A stretch of 32,000 nt of DNA from an uncultured Syntrophales bacterium (lineage in GTDB: Bacteria > Desulfobacterota > Syntrophia > Syntrophales > JAAYKM01). The stretch covers positions 4,493 through 36,492 of the forward strand of contig CAZIPU010000001.1 of NCBI GenBank assembly GCA_964541005.1. The letters are read 5' to 3'. Within the stretch, counting starts at the first letter, position 1, and each line of letters begins with the position of its first letter. Made by a program: the position numbers and the translations under genes. Below, piece after piece: positions 2,467 through 29,648 of the stretch. Below the pieces are notes generated by a model. The model saw only the letters and a list, made by a program, of their open reading frames with translations, was not told the origin of the DNA and searched no databases.

Positions 2467-2636
2467 GAATTTGCCTCTGCACCATGTAAAGTTGTGATTA
2501 TGGCTATTTTTTTTCAAAAAGTTTGTCAAGGAATTTCATTCCTCATTTGGTTGAATTGTCTTCAAGAGCGTAAGGGATGGGATTGTTTTCGCAGAGCAAG
2601 ACATCAACGGCCAGTTTAACCCCTCCACGTATCCCC

Positions 2637-10343: not shown

Positions 10344-12517
10344 GCGGCCCGCGTATTTTCATCACATCGATGGGGATTGTCAGCCCTTTCGGTGAAGGGA
10401 TCGGGAAAAATCTTTCGACCCTGAAAGACGCCGTCTCGGCCCTTGCCCCTCTCCGGCTGTTTTCCGCCTCCCATGACCCCTTGCCGGTCGGAGAAATCCC
10501 CTCAATCAGCGTTCCGGGAGACCTGCCCCGCACCCATGTCCTGGCCATGATGGCGGCCGAAGAGGCCATGAAAGGGATCAGCGGTCCGCCCGATGCCGTC
10601 ATCATCGGAACCACCACGGGAGGGATGACCGCAACCGAGGAATATCTCAAACAGGGGGAAAAGGAACCCTCTCTGTATCGTAATCATTCGGCAGGGTCGG
10701 TGACGGAGGCGATTGCCGCCCGCTTCGGTTGCCGGGGACCGGTGCTGACGGTTTCGACCGCCTGTTCATCGGGAACGGTGGCGGTCAAGATCGCTCTGGA
10801 ACTGCTCCGTTCGGGGAAGGCCCTGCGGGTTCTGGCCGGAGGGGCGGACGCCCTGTGCCGGCTCACCTACTACGGATTTCATTCCCTCCAACTCGTCGAT
10901 CCGGGAGGAGCGCATCCCTTTGATTCGGGAAGGAAAGGCATGTCCGTGGCGGAGGGGGCGGCCATGTTCCTCCTGACGGCAGCCGATACCCCGCCTGAGG
11001 GGGCCGTCGCGGAACTTCTCGGCGGCGCCCTGACCTGCGACGCCTATCACCCGGCAGCGCCTCATCCCTCCGGAGAAGGGGCAAGGAGAGCCATGGAAGA
11101 CGCCCTTGCCGATGCCGGCGTTGCCCGGGAGGAAATCGATTACATTCATCTGCACGGAACAGGGACCCCGGAAAACGATCTCGCCGAAGGGCGGGCTGTT
11201 AGCGCCCTCTTCGGCGGCCGGCCCATGCCTCCCCTGTCGTCCCTGAAGGGCGCCTGGGGACATTCCCTCGCCGCAGCAGGGGCGATGGGAACCGTCGTGT
11301 CCGCCCTGGCCGTTCACAAGGGTTTTATTCCTCCCAATGTGGGGATTCGCAGCCCCGATCCGGAAACCGCTCTGGCACCCGTAACCGCTTATCAGGCAGG
11401 CGATGTCAGGCAGGTCCTGGTCAATTCATTCGGTTTCGGCGGCAATAACGCCGTTCTGGTTCTGGGCCGGCCCGGCAATGGGAAACGGGCGATTCCGGTC
11501 CGGAAAAACGATGAATCCATCCCGTTTTTTGTCCACGGCCGGTCCTGCCTGACCGGGGCGGGCGATACGGACAGCACCCTCGACCTGTTAAGCAGGGGAA
11601 AAGAACTGAAGGGAATGGTCCCGTCCCCGGACCTGATGAAGCATCTCTCGGGCAAGGCCGTACGTCGTCTGAAACGCCTGTCACGGATGGTGCTTTCTCT
11701 CGGAGTCTCCGCCTGTGCGGGAAAACAAAAAGACGATTTGCCGAGGGCGATCTTTTTCGGTACCCGCTGGGGAGCGCTTTCCGAAACCCATGATTTCCTG
11801 GCCAAGCTCTTCGAGATGGATGAACGTTTTACCAGTCCCACCGATTTTATCGGATCGGTCCATAACGCACCGGCGGGACAGGCGGCGATCCACTTCCAGG
11901 CCCCGGGTCCGAATGTCACCATTGCCGGCGGCAACGGATCGTTCGAGCAGGCCCTCTTCTCCGCCGGTCTTGTGTGCCGCGAGGAATCGCTCCTTCTTGT
12001 CGGGGCCGATGAATACAACGAACATCTGTCTCCCCTGTTCGATCCGGAGGCGTCGTCGGAGGAAAGGCCCACGGACGGCGGCGGTGCGCTTTACCTGAAG
12101 CGGGAAAAAGGGGGGGCGACCAGCCGGGTGGCCCCGGTCTTTACGGGTTTTTCCGGCAGCGACGAATCGGTCATCAGGGAACTGATCATGAAACTGGGAG
12201 GGCGTGTCCGCATCCGGGAACGATTCGGCCTGATCCTGGCAGGCATGCCCGCGTCATTTCGAGACCAGGGAAGGCGCCAGGGGGATGCTTTTCTTGCCGA
12301 AACGGCTTATCCGCATCCCTTTATCGATTATCGACGGTTTGTCGGCGAATGCGCCTCGGCCTCCGCCGTGGCGACGGTTCTCGCGGTTCTTTTCGTCGAG
12401 CAGGGAACGGCGCCGGGAGGGATCTGTGGCGGCACACCGGCCGATCTCAACGGGCGGGGCATTCTCGTGCTCGGCTTCGGCCGTCACGTGACAGCCCTGG
12501 AGGTGATGCCATGCTGA
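10340..12517 (+). CDS. Fused ketosynthase + chain-length-factor-like domain (KS-CLF didomain)
   Basis: 725 aa with a TTG start overlapping the ACP-2 stop. N-half motifs: IFITSMGIVSPFG, TVSTACSSGT (Cys), HLHGTGTPEND (His), GAWGHSLAAAG (His), NSFGFGGNNAVLVL. The C-half (about 320 aa) is thiolase-like but has TIAGGNGSFEQAL where the active Cys should be, plus TSPTDFIGSVHNAPAGQ, resembling ApeC-type CLFs. Confidence 0.8.
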   Translation: MSGPRIFITSMGIVSPFGEGIGKNLSTLKDAVSALAPLRLFSASHDPLPVGEIPSISVPGDLPRTHVLAMMAAEEAMKGISGPPDAVIIGTTTGGMTATEEYLKQGEKEPSLYRNHSAGSVTEAIAARFGCRGPVLTVSTACSSGTVAVKIALELLRSGKALRVLAGGADALCRLTYYGFHSLQLVDPGGAHPFDSGRKGMSVAEGAAMFLLTAADTPPEGAVAELLGGALTCDAYHPAAPHPSGEGARRAMEDALADAGVAREEIDYIHLHGTGTPENDLAEGRAVSALFGGRPMPPLSSLKGAWGHSLAAAGAMGTVVSALAVHKGFIPPNVGIRSPDPETALAPVTAYQAGDVRQVLVNSFGFGGNNAVLVLGRPGNGKRAIPVRKNDESIPFFVHGRSCLTGAGDTDSTLDLLSRGKELKGMVPSPDLMKHLSGKAVRRLKRLSRMVLSLGVSACAGKQKDDLPRAIFFGTRWGALSETHDFLAKLFEMDERFTSPTDFIGSVHNAPAGQAAIHFQAPGPNVTIAGGNGSFEQALFSAGLVCREESLLLVGADEYNEHLSPLFDPEASSEERPTDGGGALYLKREKGGATSRVAPVFTGFSGSDESVIRELIMKLGGRVRIRERFGLILAGMPASFRDQGRRQGDAFLAETAYPHPFIDYRRFVGECASASAVATVLAVLFVEQGTAPGGICGGTPADLNGRGILVLGFGRHVTALEVMPC

Positions 12518-13992
12518 AGCAAATCCGCGAGCCCGGCAGGATACTGATTATCGGCTCCGGTGCCGGCGGCCTGACGGCGGGAATTATCCTGGCTAAACTG
12601 GGCTATCCTGTGACGATCGCGGAAAAAAACATCCAGGCGGGCGGGTTGATGCACAATTATCGCCGCCGGGGCTTCGATTGTCCCGTTGGGGTGCATTACC
12701 TGGGATCCCTGGATTCCGGTCAGCCCCTCCGGCGATTATGGGATTATCTGGGCGTAACGGAAAAGATTCCCCTGGAACGCATGGGAACGTCAGGCCCCAT
12801 CGATCGCTATGTCTTTGACGATTTTCATTTCGATTTACCCGAGGGGGTGCCGGCTTTTGAAGAAAACCTGATGCAGGCCTTCCCGGAAGAGCACAAGCAG
12901 ATTGCGTCGGTTATGGCAGAGCTTACGGAGGTCAGTGGCAGCTTTGCGCGCCTCGACATGCTTTTGTCTCCGGAAGGGGTACCCGTTTCCGTGGAGAGTT
13001 TTTCTCCCATGGGGGAACATCTTGACCGCCTGGGTTGTTCGGAACGTCTGAAAAGCGTCCTGGGTGTTCCTTCCATGCTTATCGGGCTGTCCCTTCAGGA
13101 ATGTCCCCTTTTTTACTATTACCTGACCCTCTCCTCTTACCTTCTGTCATCCTGGCGGCTGAGGGACAACAGTTCCCGCATGGCGGAGGCATTTGCCGGT
13201 CGGTTCCGTGCATTGGGAGGACAACTGGTACTTGGAGACGGCGTCAAACGCATTCTTGCCGAATCGGGCAGGATAAGGGGCGTGCGGCTTCAATCCGGCC
13301 GCGAGATCGATGCGGATACCATTATTGCCGCCGTTCATCCCCAGGCCGTCACGGCCATGCTGCCCGAAGGCGTGCTGCGGCCTGACCAGGCGGAACGGAT
13401 CGCTCGGCTCGAAAACACCAAGGGTCTGTTTGTCGTAACGCTGTCCGTTGCAGACAGTGTTAATGAAGCTCTTCCCTATAATATTTACCGGCTCCACCCC
13501 GAAGCGGATGGCTCCCTTGCAAAGGGATCGTTTCACCAGATACGAAAGGGCAATCAAGCCGGGACGAATCTCCTGACCATGATGGCCACCAGCAGCATCA
13601 AGGAATGGCAGCCTTGGGAACAGACCGTGTCGGGCCGGCGTGGGGGCGACTATAAATGCGAAAAGAGAAACAGAGCGGAGGCGTTCATCACCGAAGCGAC
13701 GGCACTTTTCGGCCCCCTGAAAGGAAAGGGAATCGTTGATATTTATACCCCCCTGACGATCCGGGATTGGGTCGGAAGCCCCGGCGGATCGGCCTACGGG
13801 ATCAGGCGTTCGTCGTCACAGCTGATGAGGACGGCTTTTCTGAACCGGCCGGCCGTCAAGGGGCTTTTTTTTGCGGGACAGAATATTCTCGCCCCCGGAA
13901 TCATGGGAACGACCCTGGGGTCATTCCAGGTCATCAAACGGATTATCGGCCAGGAACATTTCGGTCGAACAGTACTGGAGGGGCTGCGTTGA
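12511..13992 (+). CDS. FAD-dependent oxidoreductase of the phytoene desaturase (CrtI/CrtD-like) family
   Basis: Track ORF 12349..13992. I place the start at ATG 12511 (MLKQIREPGRILIIGSGAGGLTAGIILAKLGYPVTIAEKN, a GxGxxG dinucleotide fold ending in E). C-terminal GLFFAGQNILAPGIMGTTLGS is typical of this family. ATGCTGA overlaps the KS-CLF stop. Confidence 0.8.
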   Translation: MLKQIREPGRILIIGSGAGGLTAGIILAKLGYPVTIAEKNIQAGGLMHNYRRRGFDCPVGVHYLGSLDSGQPLRRLWDYLGVTEKIPLERMGTSGPIDRYVFDDFHFDLPEGVPAFEENLMQAFPEEHKQIASVMAELTEVSGSFARLDMLLSPEGVPVSVESFSPMGEHLDRLGCSERLKSVLGVPSMLIGLSLQECPLFYYYLTLSSYLLSSWRLRDNSSRMAEAFAGRFRALGGQLVLGDGVKRILAESGRIRGVRLQSGREIDADTIIAAVHPQAVTAMLPEGVLRPDQAERIARLENTKGLFVVTLSVADSVNEALPYNIYRLHPEADGSLAKGSFHQIRKGNQAGTNLLTMMATSSIKEWQPWEQTVSGRRGGDYKCEKRNRAEAFITEATALFGPLKGKGIVDIYTPLTIRDWVGSPGGSAYGIRRSSSQLMRTAFLNRPAVKGLFFAGQNILAPGIMGTTLGSFQVIKRIIGQEHFGRTVLEGLR

Positions 13993-15338
13993 TCATATTG
14001 CTGATTTCCACCAATACCATGACGGATCCCTATCCGACTTATCCCATCGGTCTGGACTATGTCGCCCATGCCATTCCCCCCCACCACAAAGTCGTGATGG
14101 TCGACCTGAACGACCCGGGAGAGAATAAAACACTCGCAGGGATCCTTACTGAAGAGCACCCCGACCTTATTGGCCTGTCGATCCGGAATATCGACAATAC
14201 GGAAGCCGTGAATGTGAAAAGCTTCTCCGAAGGCATGTGCGATCTGATACGCCTCATTCGACGCCATACCAGGGCAAAGATCGTTCTTGGGGGAAGCGGG
14301 TTCACAATCCTGCCCGGTGAATGGATGCGCCTTCTTGACGCGGATTATGGCGTCATCGGGGAAGGGGAACGCCTGCCCCTTTTGCTGGATGCCCTGGAAA
14401 GAAACGAGACGACTTCCGGTCTGCCGGGCATCATGACGAAAGAGGATCCCGTGATTTTCCCGGAACCCTGGACGGGCACATTCCATCGCGGGCCTTTTTT
14501 CTCCCGGGCCTATACGTCTTTTTACCTGAAAAAGGGGGGCATGCTCAACCTGCAGACCAAACGGGGTTGCCCCTTCAAATGTATCTATTGTACTTACCCT
14601 CATATCGAGGGGAAAACGTTCCGTTTTGTACCTCCCGATGAAGCGGCTGAAACAGCGCGGATGCTCCAGGACGCCGGCGCGCGCTACCTCTACATGACCG
14701 ATTCGACCTTCAACGGAAATTACGAGCATAGCCTGGCCGTTGCCGAAGCTTTCAAGAAAGCGGGCGTTTCCATCCCCTGGGGGGGCTTCTTCACCCCGAC
14801 CCGACCCCCTGCCGATTATTACCGTATCCTTGCGGAGGCGGGACTCCGGCATGTGGAATTCGGAACGGAGGCCCTGAATAATCCCATGCTGGCGGCATAC
14901 CGGAAACCGTTCAATCTCGAAGATGTCCGGATGGCCCATCGCTTTGCTCTGGAGGCGGGTCTTCATATCGCCCATTACCTCATGCTGGGCGGCCCCGGAG
15001 AAAGCGAGGCCACCCTTCAGGAAACACTTGAAAATTCTAATGATCTGGTGAAGGCTGTCTACTTCATGTTCAGCGGAATACGGATCTATCCGCACACGGA
15101 CCTGTACGACCTGGCCTTGCGGGAGGAACAGATCCAACCGGGCACGAATTTACTGAAGCCCACGTTTTACTGGTCCCCGGGCCTAAACCGACGGAGAGCC
15201 ATGACGCTGATCACGAATCATGCGGAGGGACGAAGCAACTGGCTTGTCGGCTCCGGGGCGGAAAAAACATCCAGGATTCTTTCACGGCTTTACGCCCGGG
15301 GTCACGTGGGCCCCCTTTGGGAGCACATGATCCGATGA
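13989..15338 (+). CDS. B12-binding-domain radical SAM enzyme (lipid-cluster type)
   Basis: Track ORF 13767..15338. I place the start at TTG 13989 (TTGA overlap with the desaturase stop), giving (M)IILLISTNTMTDPYPTYPIGLDYVAHAI. Further motifs: IVLGGSGFT and LNLQTKRGCPFKCIYCTYP (CxxxCxxC, about nt 14568-14591). Confidence 0.85.
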   Translation: MIILLISTNTMTDPYPTYPIGLDYVAHAIPPHHKVVMVDLNDPGENKTLAGILTEEHPDLIGLSIRNIDNTEAVNVKSFSEGMCDLIRLIRRHTRAKIVLGGSGFTILPGEWMRLLDADYGVIGEGERLPLLLDALERNETTSGLPGIMTKEDPVIFPEPWTGTFHRGPFFSRAYTSFYLKKGGMLNLQTKRGCPFKCIYCTYPHIEGKTFRFVPPDEAAETARMLQDAGARYLYMTDSTFNGNYEHSLAVAEAFKKAGVSIPWGGFFTPTRPPADYYRILAEAGLRHVEFGTEALNNPMLAAYRKPFNLEDVRMAHRFALEAGLHIAHYLMLGGPGESEATLQETLENSNDLVKAVYFMFSGIRIYPHTDLYDLALREEQIQPGTNLLKPTFYWSPGLNRRRAMTLITNHAEGRSNWLVGSGAEKTSRILSRLYARGHVGPLWEHMIR

Positions 15339-16159
15339 CCGGCCCGGAAACGGAAGGAGGGGGACTGTCCCCCGCCGGCATATCCGGTTTGATCGCCCTT
15401 TCCCTGGCATCGCTGCTGGCGGTCTTTCATCCGCCGTCGGCGGTCATCCCCCTGGCGTCTTACGTTCTGATCTGCCTGGGAGCACCGTTTTTCCCGACCG
15501 TCGGTTTCTTTCTGCCCGTTTACAGCCGGGGACGCACCGGAAGATCCGTGGTTGCGATTACTTTCGATGACGGACCGGATCCGGAAACCACCCCTTTACT
15601 TCTGGAACTTCTTTGCCGATACCATGTAAAGGCAACCTTCTTCGTTACGGGAACGAGGGTGAAAGCGCATGGCGATCTCATTTCGGCCATCCTCGGGGAA
15701 GGCCACGATATCGGGAATCATTCCTTCAGTCATGATGTTTTCCTGATGTTCCGGACGATGAAGCGTCTTGCCGGGGAGGTGGCGATGACCCAGAGAAGCC
15801 TGCGGGGTTTCGGGTTCGTTCCCCTGGCCTTCAGGCCCCCGGTGGGAATTACAAACCCGAAGCTCGGACCTGTTTTACGCCGGCAAGGTCTTTTCTGCGT
15901 CAATTTTTCCTGCCGGGCTTACGACGGCGGCAACCGGTTCGTCCGGGGGATGGCCGGCCGAATTCTGAAGAAAGTCAGGTCCGATGACATCATTGTATTG
16001 CATGATGTGCCACCGGGGAATGGGGTAACCGTACAGATCTGGCTTGAAGAAGTGGCATCCGTCCTTTCCGGGTTGGAAAAGAGGGGCCTGAGCGTTATTC
16101 CCCTGGCGGAACTCCTCGGGAGACCGATCATCGTCAGGGCAACGGGTGTTGGTCAATGA
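15335..16159 (+). CDS. Membrane-anchored polysaccharide deacetylase (NodB homology domain, CE4)
   Basis: ATG 15335 overlaps the radical SAM stop (ATGA). Two N-terminal TM helices, then VAITFDDGPDPETT (TFDDG) and GHDIGNHSFSHD (H-S-x-x-H). Confidence 0.85.
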   Translation: MTGPETEGGGLSPAGISGLIALSLASLLAVFHPPSAVIPLASYVLICLGAPFFPTVGFFLPVYSRGRTGRSVVAITFDDGPDPETTPLLLELLCRYHVKATFFVTGTRVKAHGDLISAILGEGHDIGNHSFSHDVFLMFRTMKRLAGEVAMTQRSLRGFGFVPLAFRPPVGITNPKLGPVLRRQGLFCVNFSCRAYDGGNRFVRGMAGRILKKVRSDDIIVLHDVPPGNGVTVQIWLEEVASVLSGLEKRGLSVIPLAELLGRPIIVRATGVGQ

Positions 16160-16229: not shown

Positions 16230-16670
16230 ATGGGCGCTCCTAAACAAGGATATTCTGCTTTGTGCGCCATGGATATGATGGAACAATGGCATCGCATATA
16301 TCATGAAACCGATCCGTCGGGTTCCGGAGTGATGATCAGGGCCTTGGCGCAAAGCGGATCCCCCTGGTTTTCCGGTCATTTCCCCGGAGAGCCGATTCTG
16401 CCGGGCATTGCCATCCTGTCCATGGTTAAGGAGGCCGTCCTGGCGGAGGAATCCCGCAAGGGAAGGCGTATTCGGATTCATGGAATCAACAGGGTTCGCT
16501 TCCGTCTGCCCGTCCGACCGGATGACCTGCTGACCCTGGCGTTTTCCATGTCCGGACAGGAAGGGAAGCCCGTTTATTCATTCAAGGTATCCCTGGACGG
16601 GAAAACGGTGTGCAACGGGATGATCGCCGCCGGGCTTCTGCCGGAGACGCTTCCGGCTTCCGATGGCTGA
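16230..16670 (+). CDS. FabZ/FabA-like hot-dog 3-hydroxyacyl-ACP dehydratase (APE ApeI/ApeP-like)
   Basis: 146 aa. WFSGHFPGEPILPGIAILSMVKEA is the FabZ catalytic His motif. The start is uncertain (ATG 16230 or ATG about 16270), and neither has a clear Shine-Dalgarno. Confidence 0.75.
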   Translation: MGAPKQGYSALCAMDMMEQWHRIYHETDPSGSGVMIRALAQSGSPWFSGHFPGEPILPGIAILSMVKEAVLAEESRKGRRIRIHGINRVRFRLPVRPDDLLTLAFSMSGQEGKPVYSFKVSLDGKTVCNGMIAAGLLPETLPASDG

Positions 16671-16755
16671 AAGGTGGAATAAAAGGACTTGAATGACCGG
16701 AAGGTCTTTTATAGATTCAAAGTGCAGTCATTTTAACGAGGAGGAATGGATACCC

Positions 16756-17016
16756 GTGAGTGCGGAAAACAAGGCCCTGATCATTCGCGTCGCCGAGATC
16801 GTCATTACCGAATTGAAGTTGCAGGACATTACGCCCGATACATTTGATCCCGATCTCGATCTTGTGGATGAACTGGGGGTGGACAGCATGGATCTGGCTA
16901 CGGTGGTCCTGGTTCTGCAGGACGAATATGGGATCACCATCGACGAGGACGACTATCCGAAATTGAGAAACATCCGCCTGATCGCAGAATATGTCGAACA
17001 GAAGCAGCGGGCGTAA
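16756..17016 (+). CDS. Acyl carrier protein (ACP-3)
   Basis: Track ORF 16693..17016. LVDELGVDSMDLATVVLVLQDEYG. I favour GTG 16756 (GAGGAGGA about 10 nt upstream), giving an 86-aa ACP. ATG 16693 is possible. Confidence 0.8.
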   Translation: MSAENKALIIRVAEIVITELKLQDITPDTFDPDLDLVDELGVDSMDLATVVLVLQDEYGITIDEDDYPKLRNIRLIAEYVEQKQRA

Positions 17017-18127
17017 TGATAAAACATTCGTGAGTACGACAGACGCCATAACCCTCCCAGGCGAGGAGAACGGGAAAAGAAAATGGAAGTTTTCAGAACT
17101 TCTGGCCGATCCGGAGGTGTCTTCACGATGGGAGAAGGTGCGTAAGTATTTCTTTCTCCGGGAATCGACGTATGACATGACGAATCGCTGCAACATTCGC
17201 TGCGACGGCTGTTATTACTATGAAGGGGAAAAACAGTTTGCCGTCGACAGCCGTGATCCCGAAGCGTGGCGCAAACTGATGCAGGACGAGAAATTCAGGG
17301 GGATCACCTATGTCGTTCTGGCCGGCGCGGAGCCTTCCCTGGTTCCGGAACTGCTTGAGGTCTGCTTCCGGGAAATGCCTCTGGGCAGCATCGCCACCAA
17401 CGGTTACGTCCGGATTCCCGAGAGCGTAGGTTACCGGATCCATATTTCCGTCTGGGGTAATGATGAAACGAGTGCCCGCGTCCGGGGTGCCAAAAACCTC
17501 CTGAAACGGCAGATCGAGAATTACGCCGGCGATTCCCGGGCCGTTTTTGTCTACACCTTCACCCGGGATAACATTGACGAAGTTTACGAGGTCATGGAAA
17601 CGATCGCTTCCCGGGATTGCCGGATGACCTTCAACATGTTTTCCTCCCCCGTAGGCTATACGGGAGGCCTTCGGCACGATACGGCATCGCTGCTCCGGGC
17701 CAGGCAAACGATGATGGATATCCTGACAAGGTACCCGGAGAACATCCTGTTTTCGCCTTATAACGTGGTGGCCCATACGGAGCCATATGGTCTCCATACC
17801 CTCTATGGGTGTTCTTACCCGAGGATGAACGGTTCCACCGATATCGGCCTGGGCCGATCCTTCCGCCAGTACCGGTCGGATCTTTCCTGGGATCGAAGCG
17901 TGGCCTGCTGCGTACCCGATACGGACTGCGAAGACTGCCGGCACTATGCTTCCGGCAGTGCCGTGGTGACGGCCCGCCTCTACCGCCATGTGACCGATCC
18001 GGAAACATTCCGTTCCTGGCTGGACTATGTGGATACCTATCTGGCCGTCTGGGTAATGGGTTACGATAAGGGAGAAAACCTCTGCCGTACATTGATCGAA
18101 CCGCCCGGGAAACCGGACTCAATTTGA
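16991..18127 (+). CDS. Radical SAM enzyme, no B12 domain, C-terminal Cys-rich motif (paralog A)
   Basis: 378 aa. STYDMTNRCNIRCDGCYYY (CxxxCxxC, about nt 17189-17212), VVLAGAEPSL, C-terminal VACCVPDTDCEDCRHY. The start could be ATG 16991 (overlapping ACP-3) or GTG 17030. Confidence 0.85.
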   Translation: MSNRSSGRNDKTFVSTTDAITLPGEENGKRKWKFSELLADPEVSSRWEKVRKYFFLRESTYDMTNRCNIRCDGCYYYEGEKQFAVDSRDPEAWRKLMQDEKFRGITYVVLAGAEPSLVPELLEVCFREMPLGSIATNGYVRIPESVGYRIHISVWGNDETSARVRGAKNLLKRQIENYAGDSRAVFVYTFTRDNIDEVYEVMETIASRDCRMTFNMFSSPVGYTGGLRHDTASLLRARQTMMDILTRYPENILFSPYNVVAHTEPYGLHTLYGCSYPRMNGSTDIGLGRSFRQYRSDLSWDRSVACCVPDTDCEDCRHYASGSAVVTARLYRHVTDPETFRSWLDYVDTYLAVWVMGYDKGENLCRTLIEPPGKPDSI

Positions 18128-18185
18128 AAAACAGGGTTGTCGTTTCCATTCTGGGGGACGACGGGGGGAAAACGAGAAAAATTAT

Positions 18186-19184
18186 ATGAAAACGGTCAGT
18201 TCCTTACTTGATGAAGCCTGGCATGAGCGCTACCGGAAAATCGCCAGCCTGAATATCCGCAGTTCCATCTACGATGTGACCAACCGCTGTAACCTGCGCT
18301 GCAAGGGGTGTTTCTTCTTTTCCTCCAATGAGCACGAAGCCGCTCAGGAGGAGATGGATATAAACAAGTGGTATGACTTTATCGGCCGGGAGAAGGCGCG
18401 GGGAGTCAACCTGGCCATCCTGATCGGCGGTGAACCGACCCTGTACCTGGACCGGGTTGAAGCCTTTTATCGGCAGCTTCCCACGTACTGCGCCACCAAC
18501 GGGCAGATCAAAATCCCCCGCGACCGCTTCCCTGACATGATGGTGGGCATCTCCCTGTGGGGGGACGAGGAAGACGAGAAAACCCTCCGGGGGAAAGACA
18601 CGTTCGCCGTTTCCCGGCGACATTACGAAGGTGACCCCCACACCTACTATCTTTACACGATCACGGCAAAACAGGTCGGACGCATCGAATCGGTCGTCCG
18701 TAAAATAGCCGATGCGGGTCTTAAGGTCCATTTCCAGCTTCTGACGAACGATGAACAGGTGGACGGATTCTCCTGGAGCGAGGACAAGCTGCGCGACATT
18801 CGAAGTGAAATGGATGAAATGCTTGACCGCTATCCCCGGACGGTTGTTTCCTGCCGGTATTATCACGAAATCATCACCACGGGGAAAATGATGGGACGGC
18901 CTTTCGGCTGGAACGAGTGCCCCTCCGTGACGGAACAACTGGATACGCGGAATCCGCAACCCAAAAGACTCATCCGGTTCATCCGCTGGGCTTCCGATCT
19001 GAAGACCATGCACCGGTGCTGCACCTCCGAAACCCGGGACTGTTCGACCTGCAAGGACGGGGCGGCCCACATGAGCTGGGTCATGGTCAACAAGAGGGAT
19101 CATCTGCGTTCGACCCAAGACATCCAGAACTGGATCGAAGTCTACGAAATGTTTGCCAAACTGTACCGTTTTATCCCCTGGTAG
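18186..19184 (+). CDS. Radical SAM enzyme, no B12 domain, C-terminal Cys-rich motif (paralog B)
   Basis: 332 aa. SIYDVTNRCNLRCKGCFFF (about nt 18288-18311), ILIGGEPTL, C-terminal HRCCTSETRDCSTCKDG. Alignable by eye with the preceding gene along its length. Confidence 0.85.
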   Translation: MKTVSSLLDEAWHERYRKIASLNIRSSIYDVTNRCNLRCKGCFFFSSNEHEAAQEEMDINKWYDFIGREKARGVNLAILIGGEPTLYLDRVEAFYRQLPTYCATNGQIKIPRDRFPDMMVGISLWGDEEDEKTLRGKDTFAVSRRHYEGDPHTYYLYTITAKQVGRIESVVRKIADAGLKVHFQLLTNDEQVDGFSWSEDKLRDIRSEMDEMLDRYPRTVVSCRYYHEIITTGKMMGRPFGWNECPSVTEQLDTRNPQPKRLIRFIRWASDLKTMHRCCTSETRDCSTCKDGAAHMSWVMVNKRDHLRSTQDIQNWIEVYEMFAKLYRFIPW

Positions 19185-19193
19185 CCTCCCCTC

Positions 19194-20468
19194 ATGAGCG
19201 CTGCGGCAAGGATGGGAACGGGGCGAAAAAGGCCTGTCATACTCGGCTACGATGCCGTATCTCCCCTGGGGTTGGATCTGGCAGAGCAGTGGGAACGTGC
19301 ATCGAGGGGCGAAAGCGGAATAGGCCCCCTGACCCGTTTTCCCCTCCGGGACGGATTCCCGGTGAGAATCGCCGGGGAGGTGAAGGAGATCGACACGGGA
19401 GCCTATCCCTTTTTAGCCGCCCGGGATATGGTGCAGTGGACGTCGCCTCTGTTTAAGTACGCCATGCTGGTGGTTAACCGGGCCCTGGCGAAAAGCGGGA
19501 TCGAGATTACCCCCGCCATATCGCCCCGGGTGGCCATTACCTTCAGTTCCGCCATCGGCGGCCTTGACGCGGTTTTGAAGGCGGACCGGCTTCTTGTTTC
19601 CGGAGGGAAACTGCCCCATCCCTTCACCAATCCGAATTCCTGCATCAACATGGTGGGGGGAAAGGTATCGATCATGACCGGGGCGACGGGACCGATTACG
19701 TCAACCATCACCGCCTGCGCCACGGGGAGCACTTCCATGATCATGGGGGGGCTTCTGATCGACCAGGGGATGGCCGATGTCGTCATTTGCGGCGCCGTGG
19801 ATTTCCCCCTCGTCGAGCCCATCGTGGGAGGATTCGCCACGATGAACGGGGCCTACCGGCCGAAAGAAGGCCAGCCGGAGGAAGCGCCGGAAAGGGCCAG
19901 CCGGCCCTTTTCGCAGAACAGGCGCGGGTTTGTGGTCTCCGAGGGAGCAGGGTGTGTCATCATTGCCGGACGTGATTTCGCCGCGTCCCATGGTTTACAG
20001 TTTGACCTGGAAATGGCAGGATGGGCCATGACCTCCGACGCCCATCATTTTGTGGCGCCGAATCTCCAGACGGTTAGGCGCTGCATCTCCGAAAGTCTTG
20101 CCGACGCGGGTCTTCAGGTGTCGGAGATCAATGCGATCAACGCCCACGGCACGTCGACCAAAATCGGCGACAAAATCGAATGGGAGGCCCTGCGTGATGT
20201 TTTTGGCAGCCGCATTCCTCCCGTATCGGCCAACAAGTCCCAGACGGGGCATGCCATGGGGGCTTCTTCCGCCATTGAGTTAATTCTGGCCATGGAAGGA
20301 ATGAAGCGGGAGAGAGTTCTGCCGACGATCAATTACCGGCCGGACCCGGAGATACCCCTCGACTGCGTTCCCGAAGGGGCGCGGAAGCTGGAGCAGGAAT
20401 ACGTTCTGAAAAACGCGTTCGGATTTGGCGGCTGCAACGCCTGCCTGGTGTTGCGCAGGACCGGTTGA
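19194..20468 (+). CDS. Beta-ketoacyl-ACP synthase, KAS I/II type (KS-2)
   Basis: 424 aa. ITACATGSTSMIMG (Cys), INAHGTSTKIGD (His), NKSQTGHAMGASSAIE (Lys/His), NAFGFGGCNACLVL. Confidence 0.9.
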   Translation: MSAAARMGTGRKRPVILGYDAVSPLGLDLAEQWERASRGESGIGPLTRFPLRDGFPVRIAGEVKEIDTGAYPFLAARDMVQWTSPLFKYAMLVVNRALAKSGIEITPAISPRVAITFSSAIGGLDAVLKADRLLVSGGKLPHPFTNPNSCINMVGGKVSIMTGATGPITSTITACATGSTSMIMGGLLIDQGMADVVICGAVDFPLVEPIVGGFATMNGAYRPKEGQPEEAPERASRPFSQNRRGFVVSEGAGCVIIAGRDFAASHGLQFDLEMAGWAMTSDAHHFVAPNLQTVRRCISESLADAGLQVSEINAINAHGTSTKIGDKIEWEALRDVFGSRIPPVSANKSQTGHAMGASSAIELILAMEGMKRERVLPTINYRPDPEIPLDCVPEGARKLEQEYVLKNAFGFGGCNACLVLRRTG

Positions 20469-20502: not shown

Positions 20503-21768
20503 ATGAAGGCACCCAAGAACAGACGGGTTTTCGTTATCGGCTACGGCGCGGCCACGCCCCTGGGAAGGACTTTTTCCACGACCTGGGAGCGTGCGGTGAA
20601 AGCGGAGGCCGGTTTCCGCACGGTTACCCGCTGCCATGTCAAAACCCTGAGCCACGTCGTGGGTGAAATACCGGATTGGGATCCGCTGCACCTGGGCCTG
20701 GCCGATGAAAAGGAAGTCTATAACTGGAATGCGGCCTTTGTCATTCTGACGATGGCGGTCTGCCGGGAAGCGCTGGAACATGCGGGATTGATCATGGACA
20801 ACGGCGTCGCCCCGAAAACCGCCTGCCTGATCGGCTCCGCCATCAACGGCACCGACGCCTTCCGGTGCGCCGTGGAAAACCTGCGGGACAAGGGGCCCCT
20901 CAAGGTCAGTCCCTACCTGCTCCCCAACATCTGCGCCAATCTGCCTGCCGGTAAAGCCGGCATGGAACTGGGATTCACGGGACCTGTTTTTTCACCCCAG
21001 GGGGCGTGCGCATCCGCGAACTACGCCCTGGCCCTGGGCGCCCGGATGATCCGCGACGGCGACTGCGACTTTGCCCTTGCCGGGGGAGTCGATATGCCGA
21101 TCATTCCGGAGATCATTCACGGTTTCGCCAATATGAACGCGACCATCAAGATCCACCCCTACGACCGGGCCCATGACGATCCTTCACAGGCCTCCCGGCC
21201 CTTCAGCGTGGACCGGAAGGGCTTTGTCGTGGCCGAGGGAGCAGGGATTCTGGTACTGGCCGCCGAAGAGACATTGAAAACCCACGGGCTGCGACCCAGA
21301 GCCGAGGTCATGGGGATCGGCTGGAGTTCCGACGCACACCATTTCACACGGCCGAACAAGGTTACGGTCATCCGCGCCATCAGGAACGCGATCGATGACG
21401 CGGGTCTTTCCGTAGAAGATATCGGTTACATCAATGCCCACGGAACTTCCACCATGGCCGGTGACAGCACGGAGATCGATTGTCTGCAAACCGTTTTCGG
21501 TGACCGCCTGGAAAAGATCCCGATTTCATCGAACAAGTCTCAGATCGGCCATTCCCTGGGTGCCGCCGCGGCGGTTGAAAACGCCCTGACCATTGAGGGC
21601 ATGCAAAGGGGAATCATCCTGCCGACGGTCAATTACCTGGCTGACCCCGCTTTCAACGGTCTGGATTTTGTTCCGAACGAAGCCCGCCGGCAACATCATG
21701 AAATCGCCCTGTCGAATGCCTTCGGCTTCGGCGGAACCAACTGCTGCGTCGTTTTCCGGGGAGTCTAG
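20503..21768 (+). CDS. Beta-ketoacyl-ACP synthase, KAS I/II type (KS-3)
   Basis: Track ORF 20425..21768. I place the start at ATG 20503 (MKAPKNRRVFVIGYGAATPLG). PQGACASANYALALG (Cys), INAHGTSTMAGD (His), NKSQIGHSLGAAAAVE (His), NAFGFGGTNCCVVF. Confidence 0.9.
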   Translation: MKAPKNRRVFVIGYGAATPLGRTFSTTWERAVKAEAGFRTVTRCHVKTLSHVVGEIPDWDPLHLGLADEKEVYNWNAAFVILTMAVCREALEHAGLIMDNGVAPKTACLIGSAINGTDAFRCAVENLRDKGPLKVSPYLLPNICANLPAGKAGMELGFTGPVFSPQGACASANYALALGARMIRDGDCDFALAGGVDMPIIPEIIHGFANMNATIKIHPYDRAHDDPSQASRPFSVDRKGFVVAEGAGILVLAAEETLKTHGLRPRAEVMGIGWSSDAHHFTRPNKVTVIRAIRNAIDDAGLSVEDIGYINAHGTSTMAGDSTEIDCLQTVFGDRLEKIPISSNKSQIGHSLGAAAAVENALTIEGMQRGIILPTVNYLADPAFNGLDFVPNEARRQHHEIALSNAFGFGGTNCCVVFRGV

Positions 21769-22248
21769 ATGAAACCGAAACCGTTCAGGCCTGAGCTGCT
21801 CTACAAGAATTCCTGTTATGTCCGGGATCTTGAAACGGGATTTGTCTGGCACCGCTGTTCCCAGCGGACCCTGTACGCGGATACGGACCGCTCCGCCGTG
21901 GTCTACCACGCCAACTACCTGCGTTATTTCGAGTTCGGCCGGGCCTCTCTCATGCGGGACGCGGCCTATCCCTACCGGGAAATCGAGGAAAGCGGCTATG
22001 TCTATCCCATTATCGAACTGGGAATCACCTTCTGCGAGCCCCTGCGGTATGATGACCCCATGTTTGTCCACACCCGCCCGGCGGAGATCGAGCGGGTGAA
22101 ACTTCGATTTGACTACACGATCACCCATGCGGAATCGGGAGCGATTGTCTGTAAGGGATTCACAAGGCACTGCGCCTTAAATGCCCAGGGAAGACCCGTG
22201 GCAATCGATCCGAAAACGGTACACCTATGGAAAACATTTCCGGAGTAG
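21769..22248 (+). CDS. 4HBT/YbgC-type hot-dog acyl thioesterase (APE ApeK-like)
   Basis: 159 aa. YADTDRSAVVYHANYLRYFEFGR is the 4HBT catalytic Asp region. The ATG abuts the TAG of KS-3. Confidence 0.85.
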   Translation: MKPKPFRPELLYKNSCYVRDLETGFVWHRCSQRTLYADTDRSAVVYHANYLRYFEFGRASLMRDAAYPYREIEESGYVYPIIELGITFCEPLRYDDPMFVHTRPAEIERVKLRFDYTITHAESGAIVCKGFTRHCALNAQGRPVAIDPKTVHLWKTFPE

Positions 22249-22415
22249 ATTGGAAACAAGAATGCAAAAGGCGGAAGCAGGAAGGTGAAGGGGATGAGGC
22301 AGGTGAGAGAAGGGAAAGGATGTCGGCTGAAAGTTTCGAGACTTGATTGTCCGGCAAAAGACGCTTTAATTTGTGCTGTCAAAAGGAAAGAGCATTCGGG
22401 GGGATTGGAACCGAC

Positions 22416-29199: not shown

Positions 29200-29200
29200 G

Positions 29201-29629
29201 ATGAAACGGGAACAGGTACCCCAGGACGACGACCGCCTCATGGAGGGGCGCACCCGCGACCTCTGCTATGCCGTTGACGAAAACGGCGAGTATGTCCAGG
29301 TGTTGAGCACGGGGTGGGAGCCCAAGAATGCCGCTCTCATGCAGGCATGGGAAGAGATCGGCGAGCAGGCGAAGGCAATTTATTCCCAGGTGCAGGCCGG
29401 ACAAGTCAGTCCGATCGCCTTTTTTATGGCCCAGTGCATGTTCGATATCAAGCTCCTGTCGGATTACACGGGTTTGCCGAAAAGAAAGGTCAAGGCGCAT
29501 CTGGAACCCGAGCAGTTCAGGCGACTCGACGCAGAGACCCTGAAAAGCTATGCCGAGGCGTTCAACATCACGGTCGAAGACCTGGTGAACTGCACCAATA
29601 CGGCCGATCCTTTTTCCGAGGAGAAATAA
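29201..29629 (+). CDS. Hypothetical protein (possible C-terminal helix-turn-helix)
   Basis: 142 aa, starting 1 nt after the DarB-like stop. Codon usage is like its neighbours. The segment IKLLSDYTGLPKRKVKAHLEPEQF looks HTH-like, but no motif is recognised with confidence. Confidence 0.5.
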   Translation: MKREQVPQDDDRLMEGRTRDLCYAVDENGEYVQVLSTGWEPKNAALMQAWEEIGEQAKAIYSQVQAGQVSPIAFFMAQCMFDIKLLSDYTGLPKRKVKAHLEPEQFRRLDAETLKSYAEAFNITVEDLVNCTNTADPFSEEK

Positions 29630-29648
29630 CCCTTCCCGATGGTAATCC

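What the first reader, a model, noticed from the sequence alone, without database searches (positions are those of the whole stretch)
16991..19184. Tandem paralogous radical SAM enzymes with a shared C-terminal CC-x5/6-C-x2-C motif, directly after an ACP
Seen: the two adjacent genes share YD(M/V)TNRCN(I/L)RC(D/K)GC(Y/F)(Y/F), (A/G)(A/G)EP(S/T)L and ATNG. Near the C-terminus they carry CCVPDTDCEDC and CCTSETRDCSTC respectively. Neither has a B12 domain, and both follow ACP-3 and a FabZ-like DH. Inference: the extra cysteines could ligate an auxiliary Fe-S cluster (twitch/SPASM-like), typical of radical SAM enzymes that form C-C, C-S or C-O cross-links. A duplicated pair suggests a heterodimer or two successive modifications on an ACP-tethered chain. 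I cannot assign them to a named subfamily from memory.
Basis: partly seen in the sequence, partly recalled or inferred. Interest (0 to 1): 0.65.

Follow-up and report, generated by a model that had tools for sequence, protein, structure and literature searches.

The report
Paired carrier-protein-linked radical SAM enzymes
Two neighbouring, related iron-sulfur "radical" enzymes of an unnamed family always occur together, right after a carrier protein, in a pigment/lipid gene cluster found in hundreds of oxygen-avoiding bacteria; their reaction is unknown, and they are not the enzymes proposed for anammox ladderane lipids.

Summary
Window 16991-18127 (A, 378 aa) and 18186-19184 (B, 332 aa) are full-length paralogs (25% identity, E 3e-33). 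Both have CX3CX2C and a C-terminal CC-x5/6-C-x2-C motif. Neither has a B12 domain. Both follow a FabZ/ApeI-like dehydratase and an ACP.

- **Cysteine conservation:** the C-terminal cysteines are intact in 80/80 A and 65/65 B orthologs. A core of one upstream Cys plus C-x5-8-C-x2-C holds in relatives down to 25% identity.
- **Pairing:** B follows A in 68/68 genomes, and the ACP precedes A in 76/77. ACP–A–B–KS–KS–thioesterase is the best-conserved block of the cluster. At least 579 species genomes carry an A relative, mainly Syntrophales/Smithella and Spirochaetota.
- **Distant relatives:** these sit beside ACPs, or are fused to a PKS docking domain plus thioesterase.
- **Fold:** closest to SPASM/twitch enzymes (SkfB TM 0.56), but there is no SPASM Pfam hit and only five C-terminal cysteines.
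- **Not the Kuenenia pair:** Kuste3342 is a B12 enzyme matching the window's B12 radical SAM. Kuste3343 is a canonical SPASM enzyme.
- **Context:** an aryl-polyene/flexirubin-like cluster with dialkylresorcinol genes.

Most likely the two are obligate-partner, auxiliary-cluster radical SAM enzymes that oxidise an ACP-tethered chain. The chemistry is unproven.

The parts
16991..18127 (+). Radical SAM enzyme A (378 aa from ATG 16991; possibly 365 aa from GTG 17030)
   Evidence: ORF. PF04055 36.5 bits. About 2000 homologs, the top 120 at 70-95% identity. AF2 model pLDDT 80, pTM 0.83.
17189..17212 (+). A: CX3CX2C (C67, C71, C74), the site of the SAM-cleaving [4Fe-4S] cluster
   Evidence: Invariant in A1, A3 and in 80/80 genome orthologs.
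17810..17938 (+). A: C-terminal cysteine set C274 ... C306, C307, C313, C316 (CCVPDTDCEDC); putative auxiliary Fe-S site
   Evidence: Motif CCVPDT[DN]CxxC is present in 80/80 orthologs. An upstream Cys lies within about 15-40 residues in all 68 family members. This loop has low AF2 confidence, as expected without the metal.
18186..19184 (+). Radical SAM enzyme B (332 aa), paralog of A
   Evidence: BLASTP to A E 3e-33. Homologs are 79-93% identical and nearly all exactly 332 aa. AF2 pLDDT 94.3, pTM 0.91.
18288..18311 (+). B: CX3CX2C (C35, C39, C42)
   Evidence: Invariant. Present in 65/65 orthologs.
18918..19052 (+). B: C-terminal cysteine set C245 (WxECP) ... C278, C279, C286, C289 (CCTSETRDCSTC)
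   Evidence: CCTS[AE]TR[DN]CxxC in 65/65 orthologs and WxECP in 64/65. C279, C286 and C289 are invariant in the 68-sequence alignment.
16693..17016 (+). ACP-3, the carrier protein encoded directly before A; the presumed substrate carrier
   Evidence: PF00550. An ortholog directly precedes A in 76/77 loci. Median identity 69%.
16230..16670 (+). FabZ/ApeI-like dehydratase
   Evidence: PF07977 and PF22818 ApeI-like at 31.5 bits, cutoff 28.5. Conserved in position.
19194..20468 (+). FabF-like ketosynthase KS1 (Cys-His-His present)
   Evidence: Pfam and NCBIfam. Follows B in the loci. Median identity 72%.
20503..21768 (+). FabF-like ketosynthase KS2 (ORF opens at 20425; probable start ATG 20503)
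   Evidence: median identity 71%.
21769..22248 (+). YbgC/4HBT-type thioesterase that closes the conserved six-gene block
   Evidence: TIGR00051 78.9 bits, cutoff 68.7. Median identity 73%.
13995..15338 (+). B12-binding radical SAM enzyme of the same cluster (TIGR04072); the counterpart of Kuenenia Kuste3342
   Evidence: TIGR04072 391.5 bits, cutoff 360. 35% identity over 403 aa to Kuste3342, E 9e-81.
12349..13992 (+). Phytoene-desaturase-like FAD oxidoreductase (cluster context)
   Evidence: PF01593 and the CrtI/CrtD families, below their cutoffs.
15317..16159 (+). Polysaccharide-deacetylase-like protein (cluster context)
   Evidence: PF01522. Conserved in position.
28057..30650 (+). Dialkylresorcinol genes darB, darG, darH (context; about 9 kb downstream)
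   Evidence: NF005293 544.6 bits (cutoff 450), NF053536 147.6 (cutoff 70), NF053550 470.1 (cutoff 300).

Best explanation
A and B are two catalytically competent radical SAM enzymes of an unnamed family that is associated with carrier proteins.

Shown or directly read from sequence:
- Each binds the SAM-cleaving [4Fe-4S] cluster through CX3CX2C.
- Each keeps the GxEP and xTNG core motifs.
- Each carries a strictly conserved C-terminal set of five cysteines.
- The two genes never occur apart in the sampled genomes.
- They sit between a dedicated ACP and two FabF-like ketosynthases plus a thioesterase, and this six-gene block is the most conserved part of the cluster.

Inferred:
- The C-terminal cysteines hold one auxiliary Fe-S cluster, in a reduced, twitch-like version of the SPASM arrangement.
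- The substrate is an acyl or polyene chain attached to ACP-3 while it is being elongated by KS1/KS2.
- Each enzyme uses a 5'-deoxyadenosyl radical to remove a hydrogen atom from that chain. The auxiliary cluster then takes up the electron, giving a net oxygen-independent two-electron oxidation.
- My preferred reading is that the paralogs act as an obligate pair, either as a heterodimer or in consecutive steps. Each would perform one H-abstraction, so that together they close a C-C bond (a ring or branch) in the tethered chain. Anaerobic desaturation is the close second.
- The thioesterase then releases the product, which enters an aryl-polyene/flexirubin-like lipid or pigment through the PlsC/PlsY and LpxL-like acyltransferases.
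For: - **Paralogy and motifs:**
- **Both look active:** C67/C71/C74, G112, E114, N137 and G138 are invariant across 30 A and 26 B sequences. In the wide family C35/C39/C42, G81, E83, N105, G106 and R135 are invariant.
- **Cysteine set:**
- **Obligate pairing:** B follows A in 68/68 loci and the ACP precedes A in 76/77. A divergent cluster, L090, keeps KS-KS-A'-B'-ACP-KS with B' only 36% identical to B.
- **Conservation of the block:** median identities are A 75, B 78, KS1 72, KS2 71, TE 73 and ACP 69. By contrast B12-rSAM is 55, the deacetylase 51 and FabZ 43.
- **Carrier-protein theme in distant relatives:** P0249 and P0344 lie next to an ACP. P0366 lies next to an AMP-ligase and a SnoaL-PCP. 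P0354 is a TubC-docking + thioesterase + rSAM fusion directly behind a PKS module.
- **Fold:** nearest to auxiliary-cluster enzymes SkfB, anSME, CteB, SuiB and ChlB.
- **Motif spacing:** the C-x5-C-x2-C-R spacing aligns onto the SPASM core of the Kuste3343 family in a full-length profile comparison.
- **Two abstractions per bond:** a C(sp3)-C(sp3) bond needs two H-abstractions, as stated for Tes in PMC13459092.
- **Downstream acyltransferases:** PlsC and PlsY are conserved downstream.
Against: - There is no biochemical data of any kind.
- Fe-S binding by the C-terminal cysteines is inferred from conservation only. I could not read model coordinates to check the geometry.
- The C-terminal region alone has no significant similarity to SPASM, and Pfam SPASM is negative.
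- No A-B fusion protein appears among the 150 best representatives, so a heterodimer has no Rosetta-stone support.
- Two distant relatives (P0279, P0280) showed no carrier protein in the stretch available.
- The cluster already has a phytoene-desaturase-like enzyme and a B12 radical SAM enzyme, which could account for desaturation and methylation. That leaves the role of A and B undefined rather than pointed to.
- The product of the cluster is unknown in every organism.
Confidence: 0.55

Rival explanations
1. A and B are oxygen-independent desaturases. Each removes two hydrogens from the ACP-bound chain (as the dehydrogenases BtrN and anSME do on other substrates). This would build or extend a conjugated polyene in organisms that cannot use O2-dependent desaturases.
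For: Auxiliary-cluster radical SAM enzymes often perform two-electron dehydrogenations (established knowledge of BtrN, anSME and SpeY; SpeY and anSME are among the fold hits). The cluster type is polyene-making. The hosts are strict anaerobes.
Against: The cluster has its own dehydratases and, in relatives, a ketoreductase. These make polyenes in the normal aryl-polyene way. It also has a phytoene-desaturase-like enzyme. Nothing explains why two paralogs would be needed.
Confidence: 0.2
2. The C-terminal cysteines bind zinc or serve a purely structural role. A and B would then be single-cluster radical SAM enzymes.
For: Four cysteines lie within 11 residues, which resembles a zinc-knuckle spacing. 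There is no SPASM Pfam hit. The C-terminal profile comparison is insignificant. The second Cys of the CC pair is replaced in about a third of distant relatives.
Against: The nearest folds all carry auxiliary Fe-S clusters. The C-x5-C-x2-C-R spacing matches the SPASM core in Kuste3343. A further conserved upstream Cys completes a four-ligand set in all 68 family members.
Confidence: 0.15
3. A and B modify a protein or peptide rather than the acyl chain. Targets could be a residue of the ACP or a ketosynthase, or a small precursor peptide, as in RiPP maturases.
For: The closest solved structures and the best sequence match (SkfB, E 1.7e-10) are peptide maturases. Some sources label homologs 'organic radical activating enzyme'.
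Against: There is no RRE/PqqD domain, no precursor-like small ORF in the 58-nt A-B spacer, and no glycyl-radical enzyme nearby. The similarity to SkfB covers only the radical SAM core. The thioesterase/docking fusion P0354 argues for a thiotemplated small-molecule substrate.
Confidence: 0.07
4. A and B insert sulfur into the tethered chain, using the auxiliary cluster as the sulfur donor as LipA and BioB do.
For: LipA works on a protein-tethered acyl chain with a sacrificial auxiliary cluster (established knowledge). Biotin synthase appears among the weaker fold hits.
Against: There is no sequence similarity to the LipA/BioB/MiaB auxiliary sites. There are no cluster-repair or sulfur-transfer genes in the window.
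Confidence: 0.05
5. The pair makes ladderane (cyclobutane) rings as proposed for anammox bacteria.
For: The neighbouring B12 radical SAM enzyme passes TIGR04072 ('rSAM_ladder_B12') and is 35% identical to Kuste3342. Clusters annotated as ladderane by antiSMASH are also reported in non-anammox phyla (PMC9902471).
Against: The four radical SAM proteins of the Kuenenia candidate clusters whose sequences I compared are either B12-type (Kuste2803, 3342, 3608) or SPASM-type (Kuste3343). A and B match Kuste3343 only around CX3CX2C. Ladderanes are reported only from anammox bacteria (PMC9902471). ACP-3, FabZ, KS1 and KS2 are no closer to the anammox structures than to ordinary FAS proteins.
Confidence: 0.03

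Closest known systems
Twitch/SPASM auxiliary-cluster radical SAM enzymes (SkfB 6efn, anSME 4k36/4k37, CteB 5wgg, SuiB 5v1q, ChlB 9gm3)
   Same: Same partial TIM-barrel core. SkfB is the best sequence match (E 1.7e-10) and the best fold match (TM 0.56). A cysteine-rich region follows the core, and its C-x5-C-x2-C-R spacing aligns with the SPASM core.
   Different: No PF13186 hit. There are five rather than seven or eight C-terminal cysteines. The C-terminal region alone is not significantly similar. TM is only about 0.5. The known members act on peptides or small molecules, whereas A and B are tied to an ACP and to ketosynthases.
Kuenenia stuttgartiensis Kuste3342/Kuste3343 (adjacent radical SAM genes of the proposed ladderane/PUFA cluster; Rattray 2009 PMC2649909, Javidpour 2016 PMC4790861)
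   Same: Also two adjacent radical SAM genes next to FabZ, ACP and FabF genes, in a cluster that also holds a phytoene-desaturase-like gene, a polysaccharide-deacetylase-like gene, a glycosyltransferase and methyltransferases.
   Different: The Kuenenia pair is not paralogous. Kuste3342 is B12-binding and corresponds to the window's separate B12 radical SAM gene (35% identity, E 9e-81). Kuste3343 is a canonical SPASM enzyme. No Kuste3343-like gene occurs in the window or in 80 related loci.
Jaw5/C10P (HemN-like radical SAM cyclopropanases in jawsamycin and CC-1065 biosynthesis)
   Same: Radical SAM enzymes that modify a ketoacyl chain in a ketoacyl (polyketide) pathway. [quoted passage not shown]
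   Different: They belong to a different radical SAM subfamily (HemN-like, two SAM molecules, no auxiliary cluster; established knowledge). No sequence relation was detected.
Tes / GDGT-MAS (7tol), the lipid tail-to-tail C-C coupling radical SAM enzyme
   Same: A lipid-modifying radical SAM enzyme with extra Fe-S clusters. It gives a weak sequence hit (E 8.5e-4 to 2e-3) and a fold hit. It poses the same problem of needing two H-abstractions per C-C bond.
   Different: Tes has about 500 aa and different C-terminal domains. NF045702 scores are 22.5 and 28.8 against a cutoff of 450. It acts on membrane isoprenoid lipids, not ACP-bound chains.
Paralogous radical SAM pairs that act together (CofG/CofH of F0 synthase; BzaA/BzaB) - from my own knowledge, not tested here
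   Same: Two related radical SAM enzymes encoded side by side (or fused), both needed for one transformation.
   Different: The substrates and subfamilies are unrelated. This is a functional analogy only.
Aryl-polyene / flexirubin-dialkylresorcinol clusters (Schoener 2014, PMC3992019)
   Same: The surrounding genes match: several ACPs and ketosynthases including a KS-CLF-like fusion, an ApeI-like dehydratase, a thioesterase, an LpxL-like acyltransferase, a GT2, a polysaccharide deacetylase, an exporter-like protein, and DarB/DarG/DarH.
   Different: The flexirubin cluster genes named in the passages I read include no radical SAM enzyme. No tyrosine ammonia-lyase or aryl-CoA ligase was found in the window.

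Membership tests
Radical SAM superfamily (PF04055) | CX3CX2C motif for the SAM-binding [4Fe-4S] cluster and a Pfam score above the gathering threshold | tested here: met
   A scores 36.5 and B 33.6 bits against a cutoff of 29.5. The motif is invariant in all orthologs.
Radical SAM superfamily (PF04055) | Core SAM-binding motifs (GGE-like GxEP; ribose motif region) | tested here: met
   G112/E114/P115 and N137/G138 (A numbering) are invariant across the A and B sets. G81, E83, N105 and G106 (B numbering) are invariant in the 68-sequence family alignment. Assigning these to SAM binding rests on established knowledge.
SPASM-domain radical SAM enzymes (PF13186) | A match to the SPASM domain model | tested here: not met
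   No PF13186 hit for A or B at E<=10. The control Kuste3343 scores 35.1 bits against a cutoff of 21.5 in the same call. None of the 240 listed A/B homologs has PF13186 precomputed, except that three A homologs carry no precomputed Pfam entry at all.
SPASM-domain radical SAM enzymes (PF13186) | Seven-cysteine pattern CX9-15GX4C ... CX2CX5CX3C ... C that binds two auxiliary clusters | tested here: not met
   Only five C-terminal cysteines are present (A: 274, 306, 307, 313, 316; B: 245, 278, 279, 286, 289). Only the C-x5-C-x2-C part aligns with the SPASM core.
Twitch radical SAM enzymes (truncated SPASM, one auxiliary cluster) | A short C-terminal extension with four ligands for a single auxiliary Fe-S cluster, arranged around a beta-hairpin, and structural similarity to BtrN/SkfB/MoaA-type enzymes | tested here: inconclusive
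   A conserved four-Cys core is present in 68/68 family members. Short strands are predicted between the upstream Cys and the CC motif in the high-confidence B model. The best fold hit is SkfB at TM 0.56.
Twitch radical SAM enzymes (truncated SPASM, one auxiliary cluster) | Actual binding of a second Fe-S cluster | not testable with these tools
   This needs Fe/S quantitation and spectroscopy on the purified protein.
Class B (cobalamin-dependent) radical SAM enzymes | N-terminal B12-binding domain (PF02310) | tested here: not met
   There is no PF02310 hit in A or B. The separate gene at 13995-15338 has it.
Anaerobic sulfatase maturase (TIGR03942) and PqqE (TIGR02109) | A score above the curated equivalog cutoff | tested here: not met
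   B scores 22.3 against 349.45 for TIGR03942 and 18.9 against 381.35 for TIGR02109. A has no listed hit to either.
Tetraether lipid synthase Tes (NF045702) | A score above the curated cutoff | tested here: not met
   A scores 22.5 and B 28.8 against a cutoff of 450.
Anammox candidate ladderane radical SAM enzymes (Kuste2803, 3342, 3343, 3608) | Full-length sequence similarity to one of the four Kuenenia proteins | tested here: not met
   Sequences were taken from PMC4790861 S6 Table. Kuste3343 matches B over 70 aa only (E 1.4e-6) and A over 100 aa (E 3e-3). The three B12 proteins give no significant match to A or B.
TIGR04072-type 'lipid biosynthesis B12/radical SAM' gene cluster (context) | Presence of a TIGR04072 member in the same operon-like array | tested here: met
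   Window 13767-15338 scores 391.5 bits against a cutoff of 360. A B12-rSAM homolog of the window's B12 gene lies upstream of A in 60 of the 80 loci.
Aryl-polyene / flexirubin-type cluster (context) | ApeI/ApeP-type dehydratases, a KS-CLF pair, an LpxL-like acyltransferase, a glycosyltransferase, an exporter/LolA, a thioesterase; for flexirubin, the dialkylresorcinol genes | tested here: met
   PF22818 scores 31.5 against 28.5. The KS-CLF-like fusion, LpxL-like acyltransferase and GT2 were found. DarB, DarG and DarH are above their cutoffs. ApeP-like, LolA and KR genes occur in the Spirochaetes relative L095.
Aryl-polyene / flexirubin-type cluster (context) | An aryl starter pathway (tyrosine ammonia-lyase or 4-hydroxybenzoate-forming enzyme plus an aryl-AMP/CoA ligase) | tested here: not met
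   No such domain was found among the window's proteins. The window may not cover the whole cluster.

The most novel reading that the evidence does not exclude
A and B form a two-active-site radical SAM heterodimer that docks the dedicated ACP and abstracts two hydrogen atoms from the tethered chain, one per subunit. This would forge a carbon-carbon bond without oxygen. The result would be a carbocyclic or otherwise cross-linked acyl/polyene chain, and a new class of membrane lipid or pigment in strict anaerobes such as Smithella and Syntrophus. It would be the first radical SAM pair shown to work inside a type II FAS/PKS elongation cycle.
Probability: 0.15. Interest if true: 0.85.

Novelty: new variant of a known kind. 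Interest (0 to 1): 0.6.

Why it matters
Radical SAM chemistry on fatty-acid-type chains is almost unexplored. A 2026 review lists only Jaw5 and the still-hypothetical ladderane enzymes (PMC13459092).

This study defines a compact six-gene block: ACP, two paralogous radical SAM enzymes, two ketosynthases and a thioesterase. It is very strongly conserved (70-90% identity across phyla), occurs in at least 579 species genomes, and carries only generic names such as 'radical SAM protein' in every source listing I saw.

The work also shows that clusters loosely called 'ladderane-like' outside anammox bacteria hold different radical SAM enzymes from the anammox clusters. That matters for interpreting genome-mining surveys.

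If the pair proves to make C-C bonds or double bonds on ACP-bound chains without oxygen, it would add a new reaction type to lipid and polyketide biosynthesis. It would also point to an unknown lipid or pigment in key syntrophs of methanogenic ecosystems.

Tried and rejected
1. **Kuenenia/Desulfotalea pair.** I first took A/B to be the Kuste3342/Kuste3343 (DP1853/DP1855) pair noted by Rattray 2009. The protein sequences in Javidpour 2016 S6 Table refuted this.
2. **Anammox 'Cluster I' orthology.** PDB searches with ACP-3, FabZ, KS1 and KS2 returned ordinary FAS proteins first. amxFabZ entries scored only E 2e-4 or weaker.
3. **Membership of named families.** SPASM, anSME, PqqE, Tes and B12-class membership were all negative.
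4. **C-terminal homology to SPASM.** The full-length profile comparison gives 97.7% probability but is carried by the core. The C-terminal part alone is insignificant.
5. **A-B fusion proteins.** None were found among the 150 best representatives.
6. **Genome scan.** It was meant to retrieve cultured organisms (Desulfotalea, Geobacter, Kuenenia).
7. **Model coordinates.** These are not exposed, so Cys-Cys distances in the AF2 models could not be measured.
8. **Linkage of dialkylresorcinol genes.** Two long relatives showed none within 10 kb downstream of B. The linkage may be specific to this genome.
9. **Literature.** Searches for a lipid or pigment product in Syntrophus, Smithella or Desulfotalea beyond Rattray 2009 found nothing.

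Full report
**1. The observation**

BLASTP of A against B gives 25% identity over 326 aligned positions, E 3e-33. They are therefore genuine full-length paralogs.

Pfam reports only the N-terminal half of PF04055 in each protein (36.5 and 33.6 bits, cutoff 29.5). No B12-binding or SPASM domain appears even at E<=10. NCBIfam has nothing near a cutoff. The best scores are 27.7 bits for A and 35 bits for B, and they cover only the CX3CX2C region.

Upstream are a FabZ/ApeI-like dehydratase (16230-16670) and an ACP (16693-17016). This is the third of four ACP genes in the window.

The start of A is uncertain. ATG 16991 overlaps the ACP gene by 26 nt. GTG 17030 would give the 365 aa seen in the 95%-identical homolog P0002 and would remove the overlap. 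In a related genome the gene starts 28 nt after the ACP stop.

**2. Conservation of the cysteines**

Each protein has about 2000 detectable homologs. The best 120 are 70-95% identical for A and 79-93% for B, and B homologs are almost always exactly 332 aa. None carries anything more specific than generic radical-SAM labels such as 'radical SAM protein' or 'MoaA/NifB/PqqE/SkfB family radical SAM enzyme'.

- In an alignment of 30 A and 26 B sequences, C67/C71/C74 and C306/C307/C313/C316 (A numbering) are invariant.
- In 80 genome loci the CC-x5-C-x2-C motif is intact in 80/80 A orthologs.
- CC-x6-C-x2-C is intact in 65/65 full-length B orthologs, and the upstream WxECP cysteine in 64/65.

An exhaustive search of 1.84 billion cluster representatives found only 528 relatives at E<=1e-3. 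In the full-length relatives (20-42% identical), the first, third and fourth cysteines of the motif are kept in 91-96%. The second Cys of the CC pair is kept in 67%. In a 68-sequence alignment C279, C286 and C289 (B numbering) are invariant. Every member has a further cysteine about 15-40 residues upstream.

**3. Fold and relation to SPASM/twitch**

The AF2 model of A has pLDDT 80 and pTM 0.83, with low confidence in the cysteine loop. The model of B, built on the wider alignment, has pLDDT 94.3 and pTM 0.91. Foldseek against the PDB puts auxiliary-cluster enzymes first. These are SuiB, SkfB and anSME for A, and SkfB (TM 0.56), anSME, CteB, ChlB and SuiB for B, followed by viperin, AbmM, GDGT-MAS, EpeE and SpeY.

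By sequence, SkfB is the best PDB match (E 1.7e-10 with the family profile). That alignment covers only the core, profile positions 42-194.

As a positive control and comparator I used Kuenenia Kuste3343, a canonical SPASM protein (PF13186 35.1 bits), and its family. The full-length profile-profile comparison gives 97.7% probability, E 2.4e-12, over 261 columns. It runs into the cysteine motif and places c-x5-C-x2-C-R of the A/B family on C315-x5-C321-x2-C324-R of Kuste3343. With only the C-terminal parts, 17 columns align at E 0.055 and 1% probability.

My reading is that the region is plausibly a reduced SPASM, that is, twitch-like. The evidence is spacing, conservation and overall fold neighbourhood. 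It is not independent homology.

**4. Genomic context and pairing**

A scan of one genome per GTDB species found at least 579 genomes with an A relative. The best 80 loci (69-85% identity) come from Syntrophales, Smithella, Syntrophus, Desulfobacterales, Spirochaetota, Leptospirales and one Planctomycetota MAG.

- Mapping the window's proteins onto these loci shows the order B12-rSAM, deacetylase, FabZ-like, ACP, A, B, KS1, KS2, thioesterase wherever the contig is long enough.
- B directly follows A in 68/68 loci with room. The ACP directly precedes A in 76/77.
- Median identities are A 75, B 78, thioesterase 73, KS1 72, KS2 71 and ACP 69. By contrast B12-rSAM is 55, the deacetylase 51 and the FabZ-like protein 43.

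The six genes ACP-A-B-KS1-KS2-TE are thus the most constrained block. A divergent cluster, L090, has KS-KS-A'-B'-ACP-KS-MaoC-FabH. A' carries CCVPDTDCADC and B' is only 36% identical to B. The pairing is therefore old and maintained.

**5. Carrier-protein theme in distant relatives**

- P0249 (42% to A) lies immediately before an 86-aa ACP in a marine glycan/sulfotransferase cluster.
- P0344 lies immediately before a 90-aa ACP.
- P0366 sits with two diiron proteins, an AMP-ligase and a SnoaL-PCP fusion.
- P0419 lies about 4.5 kb from PKS/NRPS genes.
- P0354 is a single 724-aa protein made of a TubC-type docking domain, a PF00975 thioesterase and a radical SAM domain of this family. It lies directly behind a 1754-aa PKS module.
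- Two others (P0279, P0280) showed no carrier protein in the stretch available.

This is the main basis for proposing an ACP-tethered substrate.

**6. What the cluster is, and what it is not**

The neighbouring B12 radical SAM gene passes TIGR04072 ('rSAM_ladder_B12', 391.5 bits against 360). Rattray 2009 noted two adjacent radical SAM genes (Kuste3342/3343, with DP1853/DP1855 in Desulfotalea) in a similar gene set. I therefore first assumed A/B were that pair.

The protein sequences in Javidpour 2016 (S6 Table) show otherwise:

- Kuste3342 is a B12 enzyme, 35% identical over 403 aa to the window's B12 gene (E 9e-81).
- Kuste3343 is a SPASM enzyme that matches B only over 70 aa around CX3CX2C (E 1.4e-6).
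- Kuste3608 and Kuste2803 are also B12-type.
- No Kuste3343-like gene exists in the window or in the 80 loci.
- ACP-3, FabZ, KS1 and KS2 are no closer to the anammox structures than to ordinary FAS proteins.

The A/B pair is therefore not among the anammox candidates compared here. Ladderane biosynthesis itself is still unsolved.

The remaining genes instead match aryl-polyene/flexirubin clusters:

- an ApeI-like dehydratase, a KS-CLF-like fusion, an LpxL-like acyltransferase, a GT2, an HAE3/MMPL-like segment, a polysaccharide deacetylase and a thioesterase;
- downstream, DarB (544.6 bits against 450), DarG (147.6 against 70) and DarH (470.1 against 300);
- the flexirubin cluster of Chitinophaga pinensis lists the same accessory functions;
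- a Spirochaetes relative adds ApeP-like, KR and LolA genes;
- PlsC and PlsY are conserved downstream, which points to a glycerolipid-anchored product.

No aryl-starter enzymes were seen in the window. Dialkylresorcinol genes were absent within 10 kb downstream of B in two long relatives.

**7. Mechanism**

*Shown:* there are two paralogs with intact radical SAM motifs and a conserved extra cysteine set. They strictly co-occur and are embedded between an ACP and two ketosynthases.

*Inferred:*
- one auxiliary Fe-S cluster per protein;
- the substrate is the chain on ACP-3 during elongation;
- each enzyme abstracts a hydrogen with a 5'-deoxyadenosyl radical, and the auxiliary cluster accepts the electron. 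This gives a net two-electron oxidation without oxygen.

A C(sp3)-C(sp3) bond needs two abstractions (stated for Tes), and the two paralogs are inseparable. I therefore favour a cooperative C-C bond formation (a ring or branch). Anaerobic desaturation comes next.

Less likely alternatives are a structural zinc site, protein or peptide modification, sulfur insertion, and ladderane formation. They are set out with tests in the rival list. No step of the chemistry has experimental support.

**8. Novelty and verdict**

The proteins belong to the radical SAM superfamily and resemble the SPASM/twitch group. They fit no curated family, carry a distinctive reduced cysteine motif, come as an obligate paralogous pair, and are tied to carrier proteins. 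I found no paper that discusses them. The ladderane literature concerns different enzymes.

I rate this a new variant of a known kind, with interest 0.6. It offers a well-defined, widespread and testable module in an area (radical SAM chemistry on ketoacyl chains) with very few examples. It currently has no known product or reaction.

Noticed in passing
window 28057-30650 (+): DarB (StlD/DarB ketosynthase), a DarG-family protein and the DarH acyltransferase all score above NCBIfam cutoffs. These are dialkylresorcinol/flexirubin genes. They sit in a strict anaerobe's cluster next to an ABC transporter gene (30647-31399). The 292-aa ORF before darB (27178-28056) has no family hit and might be a DarA-like aromatase.
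   Followed up: partly
window 3755-4033, 10077-10343, 16693-17016, 22347-22682 (+): One co-directional array holds four separate ACP genes together with six KS-type and two FabH-type condensing enzymes. The first ACP (3755-4033) has no NCBIfam hit.
   Followed up: partly
window 53-820 (-): This is the N-terminal part of a second B12-binding radical SAM-like gene (25% identity to Kuste3342, E 7e-14), cut by the left edge of the window. Related genomes also carry a second B12 radical SAM gene between PlsC and the PPTase fusion (L094 16469-18022).
   Followed up: no
window 13995-15338 (+): The cluster's B12 radical SAM enzyme is the counterpart of Kuenenia Kuste3342 (35% identity). It is not the counterpart of Kuste3608 or Kuste2803 (22-23%). 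The literature usually names Kuste3608 as 'the' B12 radical SAM enzyme of the ladderane cluster.
   Followed up: partly
L085 9191-11365: A 724-aa fusion protein combines a TubC-type docking domain, a PF00975 thioesterase and a radical SAM domain of the A/B family (CCVGDSRRDCLTC). It lies directly after a 1754-aa PKS module, so it looks like a chain-terminating radical SAM enzyme on an assembly line.
   Followed up: partly
L081 10001-11255: A single A-like radical SAM gene (42% identity to A) is followed by an 86-aa ACP. It lies inside a marine cluster of glycosyltransferases and sulfotransferases, so the same enzyme family is used in a quite different pathway.
   Followed up: no
window 10340-12517 and 24776-26308 (+): There are two fusion proteins. 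One is a 725-aa KS plus chain-length-factor-like protein (PF00109/PF02801 + PF13723). The other is a 510-aa protein with a weak PKS-dehydratase-like N-terminus and a C-terminal phosphopantetheinyl transferase. Both are conserved in related loci.
   Followed up: no
window 5379-8642 (+): This 1087-aa ORF has a sub-threshold HAE3/MMPL-type transporter segment (residues about 705-856) and a C-terminal class I methyltransferase domain. Its listed start overlaps the GT2 gene (4831-5550), so the true start is probably further downstream.
   Followed up: no
window 1159-2529 (-): A GNAT acetyltransferase is fused to a beta-keto acid cleavage enzyme (BKACE) domain. It lies on the opposite strand at the edge of the cluster.
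   Followed up: no
L095 12601-16149: In a Spirochaetes relative, an AAT-family gene and a cadherin-like/PETase-like gene are inserted between KS1 and KS2. This splits the otherwise invariant block.
   Followed up: no
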